This document shows positions 46,704 through 63,053 of a stretch of 64,000 bases of DNA, in pieces. Every line of letters starts with the position of its first letter. The first letter of the stretch is position 1. The notes under the pieces were generated by a model that saw only the letters and a program-made list of their open reading frames with translations, ran no database searches and was not told the origin of the DNA. The stretch covers positions 10,272 to 74,271 of the forward strand of contig JAGGYM010000053.1 of the NCBI GenBank assembly GCA_021162545.1. Reading direction: 5' to 3'. The stretch comes from Dehalococcoidia bacterium. GTDB taxonomy: Bacteria > Chloroflexota > Dehalococcoidia > GIF9 > AB-539-J10. Both the position numbers and the translations under genes were made by a program.

Positions 46704-46759
46704 AGATTCTGTTCTTTCTGTAGAACCTTAACAATTGAATAGTGGAAGGAAGGTTTTTA

Positions 46760-48276
<1,517 letters not shown>

Positions 48277-51268: not shown

Positions 51269-51345
51269 TGGCGCGCCTAGAGGGATTTGAACCCACGACC
51301 CCCGGTTCCGAAGACCGGTGCTCTTGTCCGCTGAGCTATAGGCGC
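51269..51345 (-). tRNA. tRNA-Arg (anticodon TCG), CCA encoded
   Basis: Cloverleaf with acceptor GCGCCTA/TAGGCGC, anticodon stem CCGGT/ACCGG, loop CTTCGGA and T-loop GTGGGTTCAAATCCC. There is one U-U mismatch in the T-stem. Confidence 0.75.
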
Positions 51346-51352
51346 ACTTACG

Positions 51353-51426
51353 GGTGAGTGATGGGATTTGAACCCACGATCTCCAGGGCCACAACCTGGC
51401 GCCTTAACCACTGGGCTACACTCACC
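51353..51426 (-). tRNA. tRNA-His (anticodon GTG) with encoded G-1
   Basis: Acceptor GTGAGTG/CACTCAC with an extra 5' G pairing C73. Anticodon stem CCAGG/CCTGG, loop TTGTGGC, T-loop GGGTTCAAATCCC. Confidence 0.85.
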
Positions 51427-55948: not shown

Positions 55949-56872
55949 TCACTTCTTTTTTGAAACCTGCTCTGTCTTATAAGGGTTAACATGAACCATA
56001 ACATCCTGTATATGCTCAAGTGTGTCCATAAGCCTACTTCTTACTTCGACAGCTACTCCATGACCTTGCTCCACAGTGAGTTTGCTATTCACAGCTATCT
56101 CCACATCAATGGTGAATCTAGAACCACGACGATGCACCTTGAGGTCATCGATTGACTTAATTCCTCCAATCTCCAGGGCAGTAGTTCTAATCTGGTCCAA
56201 AATTGCTGAACTTGGCCTTTCATCCATCAGTACCCCAATATTCGGGCGAAGAAGAGTAAGGGAAACCCTGATTATAAAAGCGGAAACAATAAGGCCAGCT
56301 ACAGGGTCTAAATACTGATAACCTAATCTGGCTCCGAGTATACCGGCTAAAACAGCCACCGAGGAGTAAGCATCCGAACGGTGATCCCATGCAGTGGCAA
56401 TAACAGCAGGGCTATTATTCCTTTTCCCCACTTTGAGTGTATAACGAAACAGACCTTCTTTTACAACTATGGAGGCAATGGCTGCTACCAGAGCAATCGT
56501 AGCTGGAGTTTCAAAATGCTTGTGGACAATGAGGTGAACGGCGGAAATGCCAACAAAGACTCCGGTAGCAAGAATTATGAGGGCCACTATAAAAGCAGCG
56601 ATAGTCTCTGCATTGGCATGCCCGTAAGGATGGCTTTCATCTGCTGGTTTTTCTCCAATTCGTAGGCTTACATAAACAGTTCCTGTGGCCAGACAATCGG
56701 ATATAGAGTCAATGGCATCGGCTATCATAGCATAGCTGAAGCCAAGTATACCGGCGAGCATCTTGAAAATTGCTAGCACTATGTTGACGCCAAGCCCTAC
56801 TAAGGTGCAGGTTTTAGAATCATAAAAATTAACTCCTGACATAAATCCTCGTCTTCTATCTCCAGCTAACAA
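55949..56872 (-). CDS. cation diffusion facilitator family metal efflux transporter
   Basis: 307 aa, six TM segments, CDF signatures (…ADAIDSISD…HGHANAE…) and a C-terminal cytoplasmic domain. Confidence 0.85.
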   Translation of the reverse strand: MLAGDRRRGFMSGVNFYDSKTCTLVGLGVNIVLAIFKMLAGILGFSYAMIADAIDSISDCLATGTVYVSLRIGEKPADESHPYGHANAETIAAFIVALIILATGVFVGISAVHLIVHKHFETPATIALVAAIASIVVKEGLFRYTLKVGKRNNSPAVIATAWDHRSDAYSSVAVLAGILGARLGYQYLDPVAGLIVSAFIIRVSLTLLRPNIGVLMDERPSSAILDQIRTTALEIGGIKSIDDLKVHRRGSRFTIDVEIAVNSKLTVEQGHGVAVEVRSRLMDTLEHIQDVMVHVNPYKTEQVSKKK

Positions 56873-57045: not shown

Positions 57046-57115
57046 GTTTTTAGCCTCCTTGCGTTTGAAAATTTAGAACCTTCTTTTATAGCCCCATCCG
57101 CAATCAGGAGTAATT

Positions 57116-58134
57116 CTATATTAACGAGAAGGAATACCCTAAAACCAGGGACATTATGCTAATGCATGCCAGATAAATAAGCAAGATTTTGCCACTGAAT
57201 TCCTTTTTCAGAACAAGGATAGTTCCCCAACTGGTAATCGGGCCTACCAATAGCAGAACCAGTCCGGCGCCGATATTCATTCCTTGCGACAGAAAGGCCT
57301 TAACCAGAGGAGGACTGGCTGTGGAGCAGACATACATCAAAAGTCCAAGAACAAGGCTGAATAAATACCCCAATCCACCGCTGAAATAGGTGCCAACAAA
57401 TTTCCCTACAGGGGTAACTGTCACTACCAGAGCTGCCAGAGCAAGTCCTAGAAGAATCTCAGGGCCAATTTCCTTCACCATATCCGCAAAACCATATCTG
57501 AAAGCTGAATTCACTCTGTCCTTAATCCTAATGCTCCGGGTGCATTGCTCTGCAGTAGCATATTCTTCGGCTTCCCTCTCAAAAATCGCTTGGCAATGAG
57601 GAGAACAAAAATAATAACTTTTGCCCCCATATTCTGTTTTTAATCCCTTCGCTGTATCCACATTCATTCCACAAACAGGGTCTATAGCAAGTTCTGCCCT
57701 TTGAAGAGGACTCGCCAAGTCCTTGGGCTCAGATTGAATGAGGTTGCCAACAATACCCATGATTGACCCCATCAAGATCGCGGCAAATAATATAAATACG
57801 GTGAACTTTATACCCAGCAGGGCATAACAAACCAGAAGAGCGCTTATCGAGGTGGCTGGTGTCGCTACCAAGAAAGCTAAAACTGGACCTAGCCTTGCCC
57901 CTTTCTGGTGTAGACCTACCGCTACTGGGAGAGACCCTATACAGCAAAGGGGAAGAACTGTCCCTGCAAGGGTGGACTAGAGGAGAGGCTTTATTCCTCG
58001 CCCACCAAGGTGTCTTTCCACCAATCCTCCAGGAACAAACTCATGGATCAAGCCGCTCAGGAGCAAGCCTATTGCAAGGAAGGGCAATACCTCGATTAAA
58101 TAATCCCTAAACGCGATAAAAAACTGGGCTATCA
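57116..58134 (-). pseudogene. ArsP-like COG0701 permease with an embedded TRASH/YHS metal-binding domain; the N-terminal ~90 codons are disrupted by two compensating frameshifts (pseudogene, or homopolymer-type assembly error). The intact C-terminal ORF is 57116..57871
   Basis: The conserved N-terminus (…DYLIEVLP | LLAIGLLLSGLIHEFVPGGLVERHLGGRGIKPLL | SSPPLQGTVLPLCCIGSLPVAVGL…) is encoded in three successive frame segments. The gene frame has stops TAG at ~58069-58071 and TAA at ~57992-57994. The middle 32 codons lie in the -1 frame. The TRASH motif is DPVCGMNVDTAKGLKTEYGGKSYYFCSPHCQAIFE. A TTG start overlaps the acr3 stop (TTGA). Confidence 0.5.
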
Positions 58135-59235
58135 ACCACTTGCTCCTTCGCCGTCACCATCGGCGTATTGAATTCGTGGCTGGTAGAAGAAACCTCTTGT
58201 CTTCTTACAGAGCCATACCAGAAAGAGCATGAAGGGGACCTCTGTCAGAACGCCAACAACTGTAGCCAGCACTGCTCCTGAAGAGAGGCCAAATACGGTC
58301 GTTGCTACAGCAACGGCTACCTCAAAGTGATTGCTTCCAGCGATTATTGCTGTTGGTGCCGCATCCTCATAGGAGAGATGAATAGGTTTAGAGATGAGGT
58401 AAGTGAGGGCAAAGACAAAAAGGATATTCAGGAATATCCCGATGGCAATCATGCCCACGGATGCCGGAAGTTCTGTGATTATGTCCCCCTGCAGACTGAA
58501 TAGGATCAGTAGAGTGATGAGGAGAGTGATTATCGACACGGTCCGCAGGGGAGGAATAAGTTTTGTTTTAAACCATCCTATTCCCCTCCGCTTAATCGTC
58601 TGAGTTCTGGTGAAGTAGCCACATAAGAGAGGAAGGCCAATATAGACTGCCACCGAAGAAACGATCGCTTTCCAAGGTATAGCAATTCCCGAAATTCCCA
58701 AGAGAAACTGGACCAGCGGGGCATAGAAGAGCACCATTGAGAGCGAGTTTATGGCAGTCATTACTAGCGTGTGCGCCATATTTCCTTTTGCCAGATAACT
58801 CCACATCAAAACCATAGCAGTGCATGGAGCAACGCCAAGAAGAATCATTCCAGCCCGGTATTCCTGAGCAATCTCGGGTGATAAGAAGCTCTTGAAAACT
58901 ACATCCATGAACAGCCAGGCGAAGAAAGTCATAGTAAAGGGTTTTATCGCCCAGTTGGCAACAAGAGTGGTGATTATTGGCTTTGGGGCCCTGGCCGCTT
59001 TTTTCACCTGACTGAAATCTATCTGCACCATTATGGGATAGATCATCATGAACAAACAAATAGCAATTGGGATGGAGACATTGGCAACAGTTAGCCCACC
59101 TAATACGTCGGAGATTTTGGGAAAAACCTTCCCTATCCCTATCCCGGCACCAATACAAAGTGCTACCCACAGGCTCAGGTATTTCTCCCAAACTCCAAGT
59201 CTGCTTTCCCTTTCTTGGGCCATATCGCGTCGCAT
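58132..59235 (-). CDS. acr3: arsenite efflux transporter, ACR3 family
   Basis: 367 aa, 10 TM segments, the ACR3 signature (…GVAPCTAMVLMWSYLAKG…). It lies 4 nt downstream of arsM. Confidence 0.9.
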   Translation of the reverse strand: MRRDMAQERESRLGVWEKYLSLWVALCIGAGIGIGKVFPKISDVLGGLTVANVSIPIAICLFMMIYPIMVQIDFSQVKKAARAPKPIITTLVANWAIKPFTMTFFAWLFMDVVFKSFLSPEIAQEYRAGMILLGVAPCTAMVLMWSYLAKGNMAHTLVMTAINSLSMVLFYAPLVQFLLGISGIAIPWKAIVSSVAVYIGLPLLCGYFTRTQTIKRRGIGWFKTKLIPPLRTVSIITLLITLLILFSLQGDIITELPASVGMIAIGIFLNILFVFALTYLISKPIHLSYEDAAPTAIIAGSNHFEVAVAVATTVFGLSSGAVLATVVGVLTEVPFMLFLVWLCKKTRGFFYQPRIQYADGDGEGASG

Positions 59236-59239
59236 TTTC

Positions 59240-60000
59240 TCACTTGTACGCCTTAACTGTAATGTTCAAAAGCTTTTCTATAGCTCCGTTTCCCTTACTC
59301 TCTATATAGAATTCTCTACTGGACACCATCATCACATCCTCGAACCTGGCCTTTCTTACCTCGCCCAAGTATTCTTGCTGCTCTAAAGCCCCGGCGATAC
59401 ATCCTGTCCAGGCATCAAGATCATTCTTTATCTCATCGGGGGAGTTCTCTCTGGGAAACTATATCGGAAACTATGAGCCTTCCACCGGGCTTCAGAACCC
59501 GGTAAGCCTCCCGGAAGGCTTTAGATTTATCTGGTGATAGATTGATAACGCAGTTACTGCTAACGACGCCCACAGATTCATCCTCGATGGGAAGTTTCTC
59601 AATTTCCGCCAGGCGAAACTCTACATTTTGGTAGCCATAACTCCTAGCGATACCTTTTGCCTTGTCCCCCATTTCCTCTGTCATATCAACTCCGATAACC
59701 CTGCCGGTGGGGCCAACCTTATTAGCTGCCAAGAATACATCTACGCCTGCCCCTGACCTTAAATCCAGGACTACCTCGCCCTGTTTTATGTCTGCTGTAG
59801 CGGTGGGATTACCACATCCCAAGCCTATAACCGCCTCTTCTGGAATTTGTTCCAAATCTTCTCTCAAGTATCCGATAGCCTGAGCTTGGGGCAGAAGGTT
59901 GGCTCCGCAAGCACAACTTGGGCAACAGTTTTGTTGGTCTTGCTTAGCTATCTGAGCGTATCTCCTCTTCACCACTTCCCTGATTTTCTTCTCTTCCATA
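59240..60000 (-). pseudogene. arsM: arsenite S-adenosylmethionine methyltransferase ArsM with an apparent +1 frameshift at a C5 homopolymer (coding-strand CCCCC = plus-strand GGGGG at 59438-59442). The N-terminal 189-codon ORF (59433..60000) is intact and the conserved C-terminal tail continues in the +1 frame to 59240
   Basis: The N-terminus has CCPSCAC and a SAM-MTase domain (VLDLRSGAGVDV…VVSSNCVINLSPDKSKAF…LKPGGRLIVSDIV). After …RELP, the frame with DEIKNDLDAWTGCIAGALEQQEYL… (conserved GC(I/V)AGA Cys) is open. Removing one C restores ELPDEIK. Confidence 0.6.
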
Positions 60001-60106: not shown

Positions 60107-60379
60107 TCAGCCACCACTGACGATAAACTGAATAGTGAGTTCATCATTCTTCTTCACAGGGCTATCCAATTTCAGTGTATATGAATTCGTCGATTTAATA
60201 AAAATCTGGTAAAGGCCTCTCAACTCCTTTTGCCTGACACTAATTTCTTTCTTAATGCCAGGAAATCGCGCCTCCAAATTGTCAAGGCACTGACCAACAT
60301 TTCGGCCTTCTGTCTCAACCAATCCACGGCCATCGGTCAAGTATTTCAGATGCCAGGCAATTTTTACCTTGATACTCAT
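60107..60379 (-). CDS. MoaD/ThiS-family sulfur-carrier protein (C-terminal Gly-Gly)
   Basis: 90 aa ending …IQFIVSGG with a beta-grasp-like pattern. It is adjacent to a MoeB/ThiF-family gene and to AOR. Confidence 0.65.
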   Translation of the reverse strand: MSIKVKIAWHLKYLTDGRGLVETEGRNVGQCLDNLEARFPGIKKEISVRQKELRGLYQIFIKSTNSYTLKLDSPVKKNDELTIQFIVSGG

Positions 60380-62211
60380 TATGACTCATATGATTCAGGT
60401 GAAAATCGTTTTCCCCTTCGTCTAGCCATTTTTTTCTGTGGGGCCAACTCCTCTATCCCGAGTTCCCGAATCTTCTCCAGTTTTGGAATTCCCGTTTTCC
60501 TACTCCAGTCTCGAAGCTCGTAATATTCGTCCAGCATTTTCTCAAAATCCTCCAGCGGGACCATCCAGCCCGTATCCTCCAGGGGCTCAGTAAATCTCTT
60601 GGGCAATGTGTCATCCTTTCTAGAGAGCCCTTCACGAACGTTAAATAGTCGGGTTACATTATAGGCTCTCTCACCCAGAGCCATGAACCATTTTTCATCG
60701 GCATCCCATCCAAGGGAAGTAAGCGCCTCTGTCAACCACTCTGCCGAATATGGTGCACAATCGCATGTTATAAGGCTCCACGCAGCAGCGTTGTAATCCT
60801 GCAATCGCTTCACCAATGCGGCTTTCCCCACAGTGGTGAACGGGTCTAGCGTTTTGCCAAAAACTTCCGCACCAGTTGGATACGCCCTCTGATGACAAGC
60901 GCCTCTATCAGCTGTGGCATAAGCAAGGGCCATCCCTCTCGACCCTCTGGGATCATATCCAGCAACTTCAAGTCCCTTGACATGAACAGCAAAATCCCCT
61001 GTTCTCTTCATAAGTTTGGCCGAAGCCGCTCTTACACCTTCGGCCAGAAGATCCCCTATCCCCTCCCTGGTAGTTATCATTTTCACTAACTCTACCTGTT
61101 TTTTCGAATCTCCAAAAGGAATCTTATAATTTATCAGGCCTTTCTCTGAGCATTCCATAGCAAAGGCAATGACATCTCCCAAGGACATCACGTCAATACC
61201 ATATTCATTAGCCAACCTTATGGATTCTAATACTGTGCTCAAATCGCCCTGCCCACAGTTTGCTCCAAGCAGCACCATAGGCTCATATGATACTGTAGCT
61301 TCAGCGCCTGCAAAAGGACCTTCATTCGCCCTCACTATATTGCCACAGCCAATGGGGCACAAATGACAGCTAGACTTTTGTATAACATTTGGCCGCAATG
61401 CAGCTTCATTAATATTTTTAACCTGCTCAAATGAACCCGCAGTAAAGTTCCGGGTCGGTACAATGTGCGCTTCGTTACACATATCAATATTGGGAGTGAA
61501 CATGCCCCCACTGAAAAACTCTCTGAGGTCCTTATTATCAGCAAGGCGTCTAAAGTGTTTCTTCTGGAGTTCCTTTGTTTTCTCAGGAATATCGATTTTC
61601 CCGTTGCTCTTAATGGCAATGGCCTTCAGATTCTTTGACCCCATTACAGCGCCAATGCCACAACGCCCTATCGCTCCAGGGCGCCCACTCCCGGTCACAT
61701 TGTTCAATACACATGCAAATTTGACCAGATTTTCCCCGCCAGGACCAATCGTTGCCACACTAAAACCTGGATAATATTCGCTTGTCTCCGTAGTACTCTT
61801 CCCTTTAAGAGTGGAACTAACGTCTTCCAGCATTACATTGTGCCCCTCTACCTTCAGAACAACCAAATTTGGACTTTTCCCTTCAATAATAATTCCCAAA
61901 TACCCTGCCTTCCTTAGTTCATACGAAAAATTGCCGCCGGAAAAAGAATCAGCGTATGCTCCTGTCAAGGGTGACTTCGTCACCACCGCATAACGCGTGC
62001 AACTGGGCATGATACCTGTTAAGGGGCCAGCTATAAACATGAGTTTATTATCAGGCCCCAATGGGTCAGTCTTAGCCCTTAACTCTTTATAGAGATAATA
62101 AGCGCCTAACCCCTTTCCACCGACATACTTATGCATTAACTCAGGTGATATTAGCTCCTCCTTCACCACCCCCTCTGACAGGTTAACCCTTAATAACTTG
62201 TACTTTTCCAT
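60379..62211 (-). CDS. aor: tungsten-containing aldehyde:ferredoxin oxidoreductase (AOR family)
   Basis: About 610 aa from MEKYKLLRVNLSEG… The AOR N-terminal domain and Cys ligands for a [4Fe-4S] cluster are present (…CHLCPIGCG…). Confidence 0.85.
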   Translation of the reverse strand: MEKYKLLRVNLSEGVVKEELISPELMHKYVGGKGLGAYYLYKELRAKTDPLGPDNKLMFIAGPLTGIMPSCTRYAVVTKSPLTGAYADSFSGGNFSYELRKAGYLGIIIEGKSPNLVVLKVEGHNVMLEDVSSTLKGKSTTETSEYYPGFSVATIGPGGENLVKFACVLNNVTGSGRPGAIGRCGIGAVMGSKNLKAIAIKSNGKIDIPEKTKELQKKHFRRLADNKDLREFFSGGMFTPNIDMCNEAHIVPTRNFTAGSFEQVKNINEAALRPNVIQKSSCHLCPIGCGNIVRANEGPFAGAEATVSYEPMVLLGANCGQGDLSTVLESIRLANEYGIDVMSLGDVIAFAMECSEKGLINYKIPFGDSKKQVELVKMITTREGIGDLLAEGVRAASAKLMKRTGDFAVHVKGLEVAGYDPRGSRGMALAYATADRGACHQRAYPTGAEVFGKTLDPFTTVGKAALVKRLQDYNAAAWSLITCDCAPYSAEWLTEALTSLGWDADEKWFMALGERAYNVTRLFNVREGLSRKDDTLPKRFTEPLEDTGWMVPLEDFEKMLDEYYELRDWSRKTGIPKLEKIRELGIEELAPQKKMARRRGKRFSPESYES

Positions 62212-62258
62212 TGCATTTCGCCTCCTGTAATTAGCTAAATTTGGCCTCCACACACTCA

Positions 62259-63053
62259 TCAAGACTCACTGCCTCCACAAACCCTGCATTCAGGATTCTT
62301 GGCTAAATTGGCTATGGTGAACTCCATCCCTTCACCATCAATATATAACATCCTGTTGGTGAGCAAATTACCAAAACCGGTAAGAAGTTTAACTACTTCC
62401 ATAACCTGTAGAGTAGCTATCAACGCCGGAGCCATACCGAAAACCGGAATTACCCCCTTGTTTTTCGGAGCTTCAGGGAAAATACAGGCAAAGCAGGCGG
62501 TTTCCCCAGGAATTATGGTGGTAACTTCACCAATGAGCCCATTCACTCCTCCATGGATGAAAGGGATTCTTTCTGCCACGCATGCTGAGTTAAGAATAAA
62601 TCTGGTTTCGAAATTATCCATCCCGTCTATTACCACATCTGCTCTCATAATAATGCCCCGCACATTTCCCTGGGTAATTCTCTCAAGAAGCGGACTAATC
62701 TTTATCGACGGATTCAATTTGGCCAGTTTCCTTGCTGCCGAGAACGGTTTCTCCTCTCCGATATCCTCATCCCAATAAAGAATTTGTCGGTTTAAATTAG
62801 AGAGCTCCACGCGGTCACAATCCACCAGAGTAATATGTCCCATGCCAGCACAGGCTAAATATATAGAAGCGCTGGTTCCCAATCCCCCAAGTCCAGCTAC
62901 CACTACATGGGAGCGCTTAAGCTTCTCTTGCCCCTGCCACCCAAAACTTGGGTATAATATTTGCCGCCTGTATCTGCTGAGATCACTATTTGTAAGCACA
63001 TTTCCCTTCGCTCTTTTCATTAAATTCTTACTTTGCCTCCTTTGAACTATCAA
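62259..63053 (-). CDS. MoeB/ThiF/HesA-family E1-like adenylyltransferase (start possibly at the internal Met near 63020)
   Basis: RYRRQIL…VVVAGLGGLGTSASIYLACAGMG…LVDCDRVELSNLNRQ and a C-terminal CxxC…CRVCGG zinc motif. Confidence 0.8.
   Translation of the reverse strand: MIVQRRQSKNLMKRAKGNVLTNSDLSRYRRQILYPSFGWQGQEKLKRSHVVVAGLGGLGTSASIYLACAGMGHITLVDCDRVELSNLNRQILYWDEDIGEEKPFSAARKLAKLNPSIKISPLLERITQGNVRGIIMRADVVIDGMDNFETRFILNSACVAERIPFIHGGVNGLIGEVTTIIPGETACFACIFPEAPKNKGVIPVFGMAPALIATLQVMEVVKLLTGFGNLLTNRMLYIDGEGMEFTIANLAKNPECRVCGGSES

What the first reader, a model, noticed from the sequence alone, without database searches (positions are those of the whole stretch)
59240..60000. arsM interrupted by a +1 frameshift at a C5 homopolymer
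The ArsM reading frame ends at …SQRELPR* (TGA). The conserved C-terminal tail (DEIKNDLDAWTGCIAGAL…, containing the third catalytic Cys of ArsM) continues in the +1 frame down to a TGA at 59240. Removing one C from the coding-strand CCCCC run (plus-strand GGGGG at 59438-59442) restores a contiguous ~253-aa ArsM. This is either a homopolymer sequencing error or a true inactivating slippage event in the arsenic-methylation gene.
Basis: seen in the sequence. Interest (0 to 1): 0.5.

Follow-up and report, generated by a model that had tools for sequence, protein, structure and literature searches.

The report
Dead arsenic-methylation gene, real frameshift
The arsenite methyltransferase gene (arsM) of this uncultured Dehalococcoidia bacterium really is broken by one extra C, and because several independent assemblies share the break it is an ordinary inherited pseudogene, not a sequencing error.

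Summary
arsM lies on the minus strand, from the ATG at 59999 to the TGA at 59240. A C5 run (plus-strand GGGGG, 59438-59442) stops the frame at ...ELPR-TGA (59435-59433). The last 65 codons continue in the +1 frame. Removing one C gives a 252-aa protein, the modal length of its homologues, which passes NCBIfam's arsenite methyltransferase cut-off.

It is a real, inherited mutation, not an assembly error:
- The same 188-aa truncated product is encoded on seven contigs, from one JGI metagenome, two ENA assemblies and one Logan run assembly. They fall into several SNP-defined haplotypes, and all carry C5.
- Eight intact relative loci, at 78-93% nucleotide identity where measured, have C4.
- The frameshift allele also carries G81R in the SAM-binding glycine motif, where 120 of 120 homologues have G. 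It has nine more lineage-specific replacements.
- Three haplotype contigs add a stop (Q207 to TAG) in the orphaned tail.
- A neighbouring permease gene has a TAC-to-TAG nonsense mutation, while acr3 between them is intact.
- No other broken gene was seen in the window.

This is an ordinary pseudogene in a metal-resistance cluster that is also damaged, in different genes, in related populations. Interest is low.

The parts
59433..59999 (-). arsM 5' part. It runs from ATG 59999-59997 through 188 codons to the premature stop TGA 59435-59433. It still encodes C25/C26, C62 (CmArsM Cys72) and C150 (CmArsM Cys174).
   Evidence: Cysteine mapping comes from the alignment to CmArsM 4fr0. The exact 188-aa product is called on 7 other contigs.
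59438..59442 (-). C5 homopolymer on the coding strand (plus-strand GGGGG). This is the site of the 1-bp insertion. Eight intact relative loci have C4 here.
   Evidence: The alignment to L001 shows a single 1-bp gap exactly here. L002, L003, L005 and L007 have ungapped intact ORFs. L026-L028 have C4.
59240..59437 (-). Orphaned arsM 3' tail in the +1 frame. It holds codons D188-K252 plus the original stop TGA 59242-59240, and includes C200 (CmArsM Cys224).
   Evidence: C200 is conserved in 120 of 120 homologues.
59757..59759 (-). Codon 81, AGG (Arg), where the relatives have GGG (Gly). This is the first glycine of the SAM-binding motif I, so VLDLGSGAG has become VLDLRSGAG.
   Evidence: G>A at codon 81, position 1, derived on the window branch. 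(G in 120 of 120 homologues). (G in the four aligned solved ArsM/AS3MT sequences).
59380..59380 (-). Polymorphic site in the tail. The window has C (CAG, Q207). Contigs L015/L020, L019 and L024 have T, which gives TAG in the former reading frame, a second lesion downstream of the frameshift.
58132..59235 (-). acr3, an arsenite efflux transporter of 367 aa. It is intact. Its ATG lies 4 nt after the original arsM stop.
   Evidence: TIGR00832 acr3 scores 356.6 bits against a cut-off of 282.8. Pfam SBF hit. The identical protein is NCBI MCD6568119.1.
57116..58135 (-). Permease gene of Pfam family ArsP_1 (PF03773) with an inserted YHS domain. It is interrupted by an in-frame TAG at codon 53 (57977-57979), where L001 has TAC (Tyr).
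   Evidence: The same TAG is present in every near-identical contig that covers the site.

Best explanation
This is a genuine, inherited arsM pseudogene in a population of an uncultured Dehalococcoidia bacterium. The likely cause, inferred rather than shown, is replication slippage that lengthened a C4 run to C5 in codons 186-188. Translation now ends two codons later, at ...ELPR-stop. The product lacks the last 65 residues, including Cys200. Cys200 is the equivalent of CmArsM Cys224, one of the two cysteines that hold the arsenical in the active site. The same allele carries Gly81 to Arg in the SAM-binding glycine motif, so even a frame-corrected product would probably not bind SAM. The gene is therefore non-functional and is drifting. 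It shows an excess of replacements at otherwise invariant positions, and some haplotypes carry a further stop codon in the orphaned tail. Arsenite efflux by the intact downstream acr3 is presumably what this lineage still relies on, which is also an inference. What is shown: the lesion, its presence on several haplotypes, the intact C4 state in relatives, and the additional lesions. What is inferred: the slippage mechanism, the loss of enzyme activity, and the reason selection was relaxed.
For: 1. The exact 188-aa truncated product is called on 7 contigs: four from JGI 3300016457, one each from ENA ERZ23499370 and ERZ23499350, and one from Logan SRR14000037. All are 99.96-100% identical to the window. 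All contain the C5 site and the AGG codon 81.
2. These contigs differ from the window and from each other at 62907, 62843, 62745, 59380, 57298, 57196 and 56943. The frameshift therefore sits on several haplotypes and predates their divergence.
3. The closest relative locus, L001 (93% nucleotide identity, same gene order), has C4 and an intact 252-aa gene. So do L007, L002, L003, L005 and P0122. L026-L028 also have C4.
4. No full-length protein with the window's haplotype appears among the 120 listed hits of a search of 5.8 billion proteins. The best hit is 96% identical.
5. The window branch has 10 replacement and 6 silent changes in arsM, against 1 and 3 on the L001 branch. The replacements hit positions that are G81 in 120/120, G218 in 119/120, K7 in 119/120, L71 in 119/120 and I147 in 116/120 homologues.
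6. On the window branch, omega is about 0.45 for arsM plus the permease, against 0.20 for the flanking AFOR and MoaD-like genes (Fisher p = 0.034).
7. C>T at 59380 in three contigs creates TAG at Q207 of the tail frame.
8. The window is otherwise clean. It has 92% ORF coverage with ORFs up to 904 aa. All suspicious overlapping ORF pairs turned out to be separate complete genes. Sixty-six G/C runs of 5 or more lie inside the 32 long ORFs tallied, which include intact acr3.
9. The second broken gene nearby is broken by a substitution (TAC to TAG), which cannot be a homopolymer artefact.
10. C200 maps to CmArsM Cys224 and C150 to Cys174. [quoted passage not shown]
Against: No read pileups were available, so support for C5 is indirect and rests on agreement between assemblies. 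The two ENA assemblies and the Logan run may come from one project, which would leave perhaps only two truly independent sources. The elevated omega rests on small counts: arsM alone against the controls gives p = 0.11, and the window arsM plus permease against the same genes in L001 gives p = 0.19. The effect of G81R on SAM binding is inferred from conservation, not measured. Low-level ribosomal +1 slippage on CCC-C cannot be formally excluded.
Confidence: 0.93

Rival explanations
1. Homopolymer sequencing or assembly error. The organism really has C4 and an intact arsM.
For: The lesion is a 1-bp length change in a homopolymer, the classic error type. The window carries a complete 16S rRNA gene inside a long contig, which could hint at long-read data. 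This is speculative.
Against: Seven contigs from four datasets, built by three different assembly pipelines, carry C5 on several SNP haplotypes. No C4 version of this haplotype appears among the 120 listed hits of the protein search. The same allele has G81R at a position that is Gly in 120 of 120 homologues. A base-substitution stop occurs in the tail in some haplotypes and another in the neighbouring permease. No other frameshifted gene was seen in 64 kb, although the window holds 250 homopolymer runs of 5 or more.
Confidence: 0.03
2. Programmed or tolerated +1 ribosomal frameshift. tRNA-Pro slips from CCC to the overlapping CCC ahead of CGA-UGA, and a full-length functional ArsM is made.
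For: The sequence CUC CCC CGA UGA allows perfect re-pairing of a CCC-reading tRNA in the +1 frame. A stop codon follows one codon later. CCC-N sites are known from general knowledge to be prone to +1 slippage.
Against: The frameshift is not conserved. All 120 closest homologues and eight intact relative loci are single ORFs with C4. By inspection, no Shine-Dalgarno-like stimulator lies upstream, where the sequence is CAGAGAGAACUC. CGA is not especially rare, at 6.0 per 1000 codons. A tRNA-Arg(UCG) that reads CGA directly is encoded in the window. G81R would cripple any full-length product. Three haplotypes have a stop at Q207 in the tail frame, which shows the tail is not under selection.
Confidence: 0.02
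3. The 188-aa N-terminal fragment is kept as a functional truncated protein, for example an arsenic- or SAM-binding or regulatory protein, rather than being a dead gene.
For: The fragment keeps most of the Rossmann fold and three of the four conserved cysteine positions. It is still preceded by a good ribosome-binding site, AGGAGG.
Against: The fragment itself carries 8 of the 10 lineage-specific replacements, including G81R in the SAM motif and I147S next to Cys150. No homologue of this truncated length appears among the relatives. Its N:S ratio on this branch is raised rather than lowered.
Confidence: 0.02

Closest known systems
Bacterial ArsM / As(III) S-adenosylmethionine methyltransferase (NCBIfam NF008823; solved relatives CmArsM 4FR0/4FS8, CrArsM 5EVJ, human AS3MT 8XT7)
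   Same: It has the same 252-aa length as its Dehalococcoidia orthologues. All conserved cysteine positions are encoded: C25/C26, C62 = Cys72, C150 = Cys174 and C200 = Cys224. It sits next to acr3, as ars genes commonly do.
   Different: The reading frame is broken after codon 187, so Cys200 is not translated. The first glycine of SAM motif I is Arg. It is a relic of the family, not a working member.
Homopolymer-slippage pseudogenes and contingency loci (general phenomenon)
   Same: It is a one-base length change in a short mononucleotide run that causes a premature stop. This is the commonest route to bacterial pseudogenes.
   Different: A C5 run is too short to act as a reversible phase-variation switch. 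The extra lesions (G81R, and Q207* in some haplotypes) show the loss is not being reversed.
Programmed +1 frameshifting of the prfB (RF2) type
   Same: A slippery codon that can re-pair in the +1 frame lies close to an in-frame UGA.
   Different: In prfB the stop is in the A site at the shift codon, an upstream SD-like element stimulates the shift, and the site is conserved across bacteria. Here the stop lies one codon further on, no SD-like element is seen, and no relative has the frameshift.

Membership tests
ArsM arsenite methyltransferase (NF008823 / AS3MT family) | Sequence similarity above the curated family threshold | tested here: met
   The repaired 252-aa sequence scores 316.8 bits against a cut-off of 263. 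It is 96% identical to the intact orthologue P0001. This holds only after removing one C in silico.
ArsM arsenite methyltransferase (NF008823 / AS3MT family) | One continuous reading frame encoding the whole catalytic domain | tested here: not met
   The frame stops at 59435-59433 after 188 codons. The last 65 codons are in the +1 frame.
ArsM arsenite methyltransferase (NF008823 / AS3MT family) | Four conserved cysteines (CmArsM Cys44, Cys72, Cys174, Cys224) present in the product | tested here: not met
   C25/C26, C62 and C150 are in the translated part. C200 (= Cys224) is encoded only in the out-of-frame tail. The requirement for all four is taken from PMC6138428.
ArsM arsenite methyltransferase (NF008823 / AS3MT family) | Class I methyltransferase motif I (D/E-x-G-x-G-x-G) for SAM binding | tested here: not met
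   The window has DLRSGAG. All 120 homologues have G at position 81, as do the four aligned solved ArsM/AS3MT sequences.
ArsM arsenite methyltransferase (NF008823 / AS3MT family) | As(III) methylation activity | not testable with these tools
   This needs expression of the native and repaired alleles and arsenic speciation.
Programmed +1 ribosomal frameshift site | The frameshift is conserved among orthologues | tested here: not met
   L001, L002, L003, L005, L007 and L026-L028 have C4 and single ORFs. The 120 closest proteins are full length.
Programmed +1 ribosomal frameshift site | The downstream frame is kept under purifying selection | tested here: not met
   Three haplotype contigs carry CAG to TAG at Q207 in the tail frame. 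G218R and V224M are derived changes in the tail.
Programmed +1 ribosomal frameshift site | Slippery P-site codon together with a slow A-site codon or a stop, and a stimulator | tested here: inconclusive
   CCC-C allows re-pairing. However, CGA is used at 6.0 per 1000 codons, a tRNA-Arg(UCG) gene is present, and no SD-like element is seen upstream (by eye).
ACR3 arsenite efflux transporter (TIGR00832), for the neighbouring gene | Score above the equivalog cut-off and an intact ORF | tested here: met
   356.6 bits against a cut-off of 282.8, with a 367-aa uninterrupted ORF.
ArsP methylarsenite efflux permease, for the neighbouring broken permease | Specific assignment to ArsP rather than to other members of the PF03773 superfamily | tested here: not met
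   It hits Pfam ArsP_1 (124 bits) and YHS. Its best NCBIfam model is the SO_0444 Cu/Zn efflux family at 222.6 bits, below the cut-off of 300. The substrate is therefore unknown and it should not be called ArsP.

The most novel reading that the evidence does not exclude
The arsM break may be one episode of repeated, lineage-specific dismantling of a single arsM-acr3-permease cluster in a Dehalococcoidia clade. The window lineage lost arsM and the permease but kept acr3. L001 kept arsM and the permease but deleted 940 bp of acr3. L007 lost the 3' half of the permease. L002 and L003 keep all three genes. If these losses are adaptive, for instance because making toxic methylarsenite is costly under anoxia when efflux is enough, the clade would be a natural experiment on which arsenic strategy anaerobes need.
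Probability: 0.2. Interest if true: 0.35.

Novelty: already known. Interest (0 to 1): 0.14.

Why it matters
The main value is for annotation and for ecological inference. Surveys that count arsM genes to predict arsenic methylation potential would count this population as a methylator if they worked from reads or partial hits, yet its gene is dead. The case also shows that comparing independent public assemblies can settle the question of error versus real mutation for a homopolymer frameshift when no reads are at hand. The differing lesions in the same cluster in sister populations suggest that arsenic and metal resistance genes are dispensable in this clade. That pattern is a modest lead, not a discovery.

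Tried and rejected
1. Sequencing error was rejected on the agreement of several assemblies and haplotypes and on the extra substitution lesions.
2. Programmed +1 frameshift was rejected because there is no conservation, there is a stop in the tail in some haplotypes, G81R is present, and tRNA-Arg(UCG) is encoded.
3. I first read the downstream permease as ArsP. That would have made a neat story of joint loss of methylarsenite production and export. NCBIfam places it nearer the SO_0444 Cu/Zn efflux family and below cut-off, so I dropped the story.
4. I looked for other frameshifted genes in the window as a measure of assembly quality. Four overlapping same-strand ORF pairs were suspicious: 13748/14623, 24642/26728, 27756/28657 and 28657/29147. 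The six members scanned are separate complete genes by Pfam.
5. A scan of metagenome contigs with a pattern that allowed C4 or C5 returned only three distant C4 relatives. It did not include the JGI contigs already known, so it gave no allele frequency.
6. A literature search for the sample identifiers (SPET22, SAMN18353073, SRR14000037, Ga0186713) found nothing relevant. A search for arsM pseudogene or frameshift reports found nothing specific.
7. No second arsM copy exists in the window (tblastn).
8. The AFOR outgroup sequences (L007, L010) carry a 1-bp indel relative to the window, so my codon alignment of that control gene is imperfect over part of its length. I treat the omega comparison as supportive only.

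Full report
**Observation.** The gene lies on the minus strand. It starts at ATG 59999-59997, behind an AGGAGG ribosome-binding site, and reads MEEKKIREVV... through ...RLIVSDIVSQRELPR to TGA at 59435-59433, which is 188 codons. The next frame then reads DEIKNDLDAWTGCIAGALEQQEYLGEV...NITVKAYK to TGA at 59242-59240. tblastn of the repaired protein returns two abutting pieces in frames -3 and -1, each 100% identical. Removing one C gives a 252-aa protein. It scores 316.8 bits on NCBIfam NF008823 arsenite methyltransferase, whose cut-off is 263, and it hits the Methyltransf_31/11/25 Pfam domains. Of the 120 closest homologues, 97 are exactly 252 aa. Those that carry names are Dehalococcoidia or Dehalococcoidales MAG proteins called arsenite methyltransferase.

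**Real mutation or assembly error.** The exact 188-aa truncated product is recorded on seven other contigs. Four are in JGI metagenome 3300016457, one each is in ENA assemblies ERZ23499370 and ERZ23499350, and one is in the Logan assembly of run SRR14000037. A look-up with the neighbouring ACR3 protein recovered the same JGI and ENA contigs. All are 99.96-100% identical to the window over 2.7-9.1 kb, and all contain the C5 site exactly.

These contigs are not copies of one sequence. They differ from the window and from each other at 62907, 62843, 62745, 59380, 57298, 57196 and 56943, in at least four combinations. The extra C therefore sits on several distinguishable haplotypes, recovered by three assembly pipelines. 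That is what an inherited mutation looks like and not what a random homopolymer miscall looks like.

The orthologous locus L001 has 93% nucleotide identity and the same gene order. It differs at this spot by exactly one base, C4 instead of C5, and encodes an intact 252-aa protein. L007, L002, L003, L005 and P0122 are also intact, and L026-L028 also have C4. No full-length protein with the window's own haplotype appeared among the listed hits of the 5.8-billion-protein search, where the best hit was 96% identical.

The window itself looks like a clean assembly. ORFs cover 92% of it, with ORFs up to 904 aa. Six members of the four suspicious overlapping ORF pairs were scanned against Pfam and proved to be separate complete genes. 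Sixty-six G/C runs of 5 or more lie inside the 32 long ORFs tallied, one of which is the intact acr3.

**Further signs of decay.** With L007, L002, L003 and L005 as outgroups, the window branch of arsM carries 16 derived changes, 10 of them replacements. The sister L001 branch carries 4, of which 1 is a replacement. The replacements fall on positions that are almost never changed among 120 homologues:
- K7R: K in 119 of 120.
- L71I: L in 119 of 120.
- G81R: G in 120 of 120.
- I147S: I in 116 of 120.
- G218R: G in 119 of 120.

Gly81 is the first glycine of the class I methyltransferase SAM-binding motif (VLDLGSGAG). The four aligned solved ArsM/AS3MT sequences all have glycine there. P0122, a second close relative at 95% identity, lacks all ten replacements, so they travel only with the frameshift allele.

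In three of the JGI contigs a C>T change at 59380 turns Gln207 (CAG) of the former tail frame into TAG. In those haplotypes even a corrected C4 would not restore the protein. This shows directly that the tail is no longer under selection.

A rough branch comparison gives omega of about 0.47 for arsM and 0.43 for the neighbouring permease on the window branch. The flanking AFOR and MoaD-like genes give about 0.20 (Fisher p = 0.034 for the pooled comparison). The counts are small and the AFOR outgroup alignment is imperfect, so I treat this as supportive only.

**Consequence for the protein.** Alignment to CmArsM (4FR0) maps the window's C62, C150 and C200 to Cys72, Cys174 and Cys224. [quoted passage not shown] The truncated product lacks Cys200 and the end of the domain, and it carries Arg in the SAM motif. 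Loss of activity is an inference from these facts and was not measured here.

**Surroundings.** The cluster on the minus strand reads as follows:
- An E1-like ThiF/MoeB gene (62259-62999).
- An aldehyde:ferredoxin oxidoreductase (60379-62211).
- A 90-aa MoaD/SAMP-like gene (60107-60379).
- The arsM pseudogene.
- acr3 (58132-59235), which is intact and scores 356.6 bits on TIGR00832 against a cut-off of 282.8.
- A PF03773 permease with an inserted YHS domain (57116-58135).
- A cation-diffusion-facilitator gene (55949-56872).

The permease is also dead. Codon 53 is TAG where L001 has TAC. The TAG is present in every near-identical contig that reaches it. TAG is an ordinary stop in this window, ending 14 of 56 ORFs. 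I first read this gene as ArsP. Its best NCBIfam match is instead the SO_0444 Cu/Zn efflux family, below cut-off, so its substrate is open.

The original arsM stop lies 4 nt before the acr3 ATG. The premature stop now ends translation 198 nt upstream, which may weaken translational coupling. This point is an inference.

ACR3 and AFOR are identical to NCBI proteins MCD6568119.1 and MCD6568121.1 from a Dehalococcoidia MAG contig of 76,887 bp. Only one accession number lies between them, and the 188-aa fragment has no NCBI source. NCBI's pipeline has therefore probably already set arsM aside as a pseudogene, though this too is an inference.

**Rivals.** A programmed +1 frameshift is mechanically conceivable, because a CCC-reading tRNA can re-pair on the overlapping CCC in CUC-CCC-CGA-UGA. 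Several findings count against it:
- No relative has the frameshift.
- The tail carries a stop in some haplotypes.
- CGA is used at 6.0 per 1000 codons, and a tRNA-Arg(UCG) gene lies in the window.
- No SD-like stimulator is visible upstream.
- G81R would disable the product anyway.

A functional truncated fragment is unlikely because the fragment itself holds most of the damaging replacements.

**Comparison and novelty.** This is a relic of a well-known enzyme family, inactivated by the commonest kind of bacterial pseudogenising mutation. Nothing about the mechanism is new. The one mildly interesting pattern is that sister populations have damaged different genes of the same cluster. L001 has a 940-bp deletion inside acr3, flanked by short GGTTT-type microhomology. 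L007 lacks the 3' half of the permease. L002 and L003 keep all three genes.

**Verdict.** Novelty is "already known" and interest is low.

Noticed in passing
window 57116-58135 (-), stop at 57977-57979: The PF03773 (ArsP_1) permease with an inserted YHS domain, just downstream of acr3, has an in-frame TAG at codon 53 where the relative L001 has TAC. All near-identical contigs that cover the site share it. Its best NCBIfam match is the SO_0444 Cu/Zn efflux family, below cut-off, so it is not securely an ArsP.
   Followed up: yes
L001 3863-4018 against window 58199-59138; L007 8368-8452 against window 57076-57620: Related populations damage other genes of the same cluster. L001 has a 940-bp deletion that removes most of acr3, with short GGTTT-like microhomology at the junction. 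L007 lacks about 545 bp of the 3' half of the permease. L002 and L003 keep arsM, acr3 and the permease intact.
   Followed up: partly
window 59380: This is a C/T polymorphism among the near-identical contigs. The T allele (L015/L020, L019, L024) creates TAG at Gln207 in the orphaned arsM tail frame.
   Followed up: yes
window 46759-48274 (+); 51269-51425 (-): A complete bacterial 16S rRNA gene (1484 bits) has no 23S gene detected anywhere in the window, as expected for unlinked rRNA genes. Further along lie adjacent tRNA-Arg(TCG) and tRNA-His(GTG) genes. The short ORFs listed at 47365-47634 and 47919-48134 lie inside the rRNA gene and are spurious.
   Followed up: partly
window about 57185; L016/L021 and L017/L022: Two contigs, one from JGI and one from ENA, stop matching the window beyond 57185, near the 3' end of the permease gene, and end 53-160 bp later. 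This suggests a structural variant or repeat boundary in part of the population.
   Followed up: no
window about 62238; L001 408-859: L001 carries about 452 bp between the ThiF/MoeB-like gene and the AFOR gene that the window lacks. Its content was not examined.
   Followed up: no
window 60107-62999 (-): Immediately upstream of arsM sits a trio of genes: an E1-like ThiF/MoeB adenylyltransferase, an aldehyde:ferredoxin oxidoreductase and a 90-aa MoaD/SAMP-like small protein. The trio is conserved in L001, L007 and L010. The mechanical ORF list starts AFOR at TTG 62262 (627 aa), but public gene calls and homologues use ATG 62211 (610 aa).
   Followed up: partly
L007 and L010 3740-5573 against window 60379-62211: The AFOR genes of L007 and L010 align to the window with a single 1-bp gap, and my fixed-frame translation of them showed 3 internal stops. 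This could be a coordinate or frame artefact or a real frameshift in those MAGs. It was not resolved.
   Followed up: no
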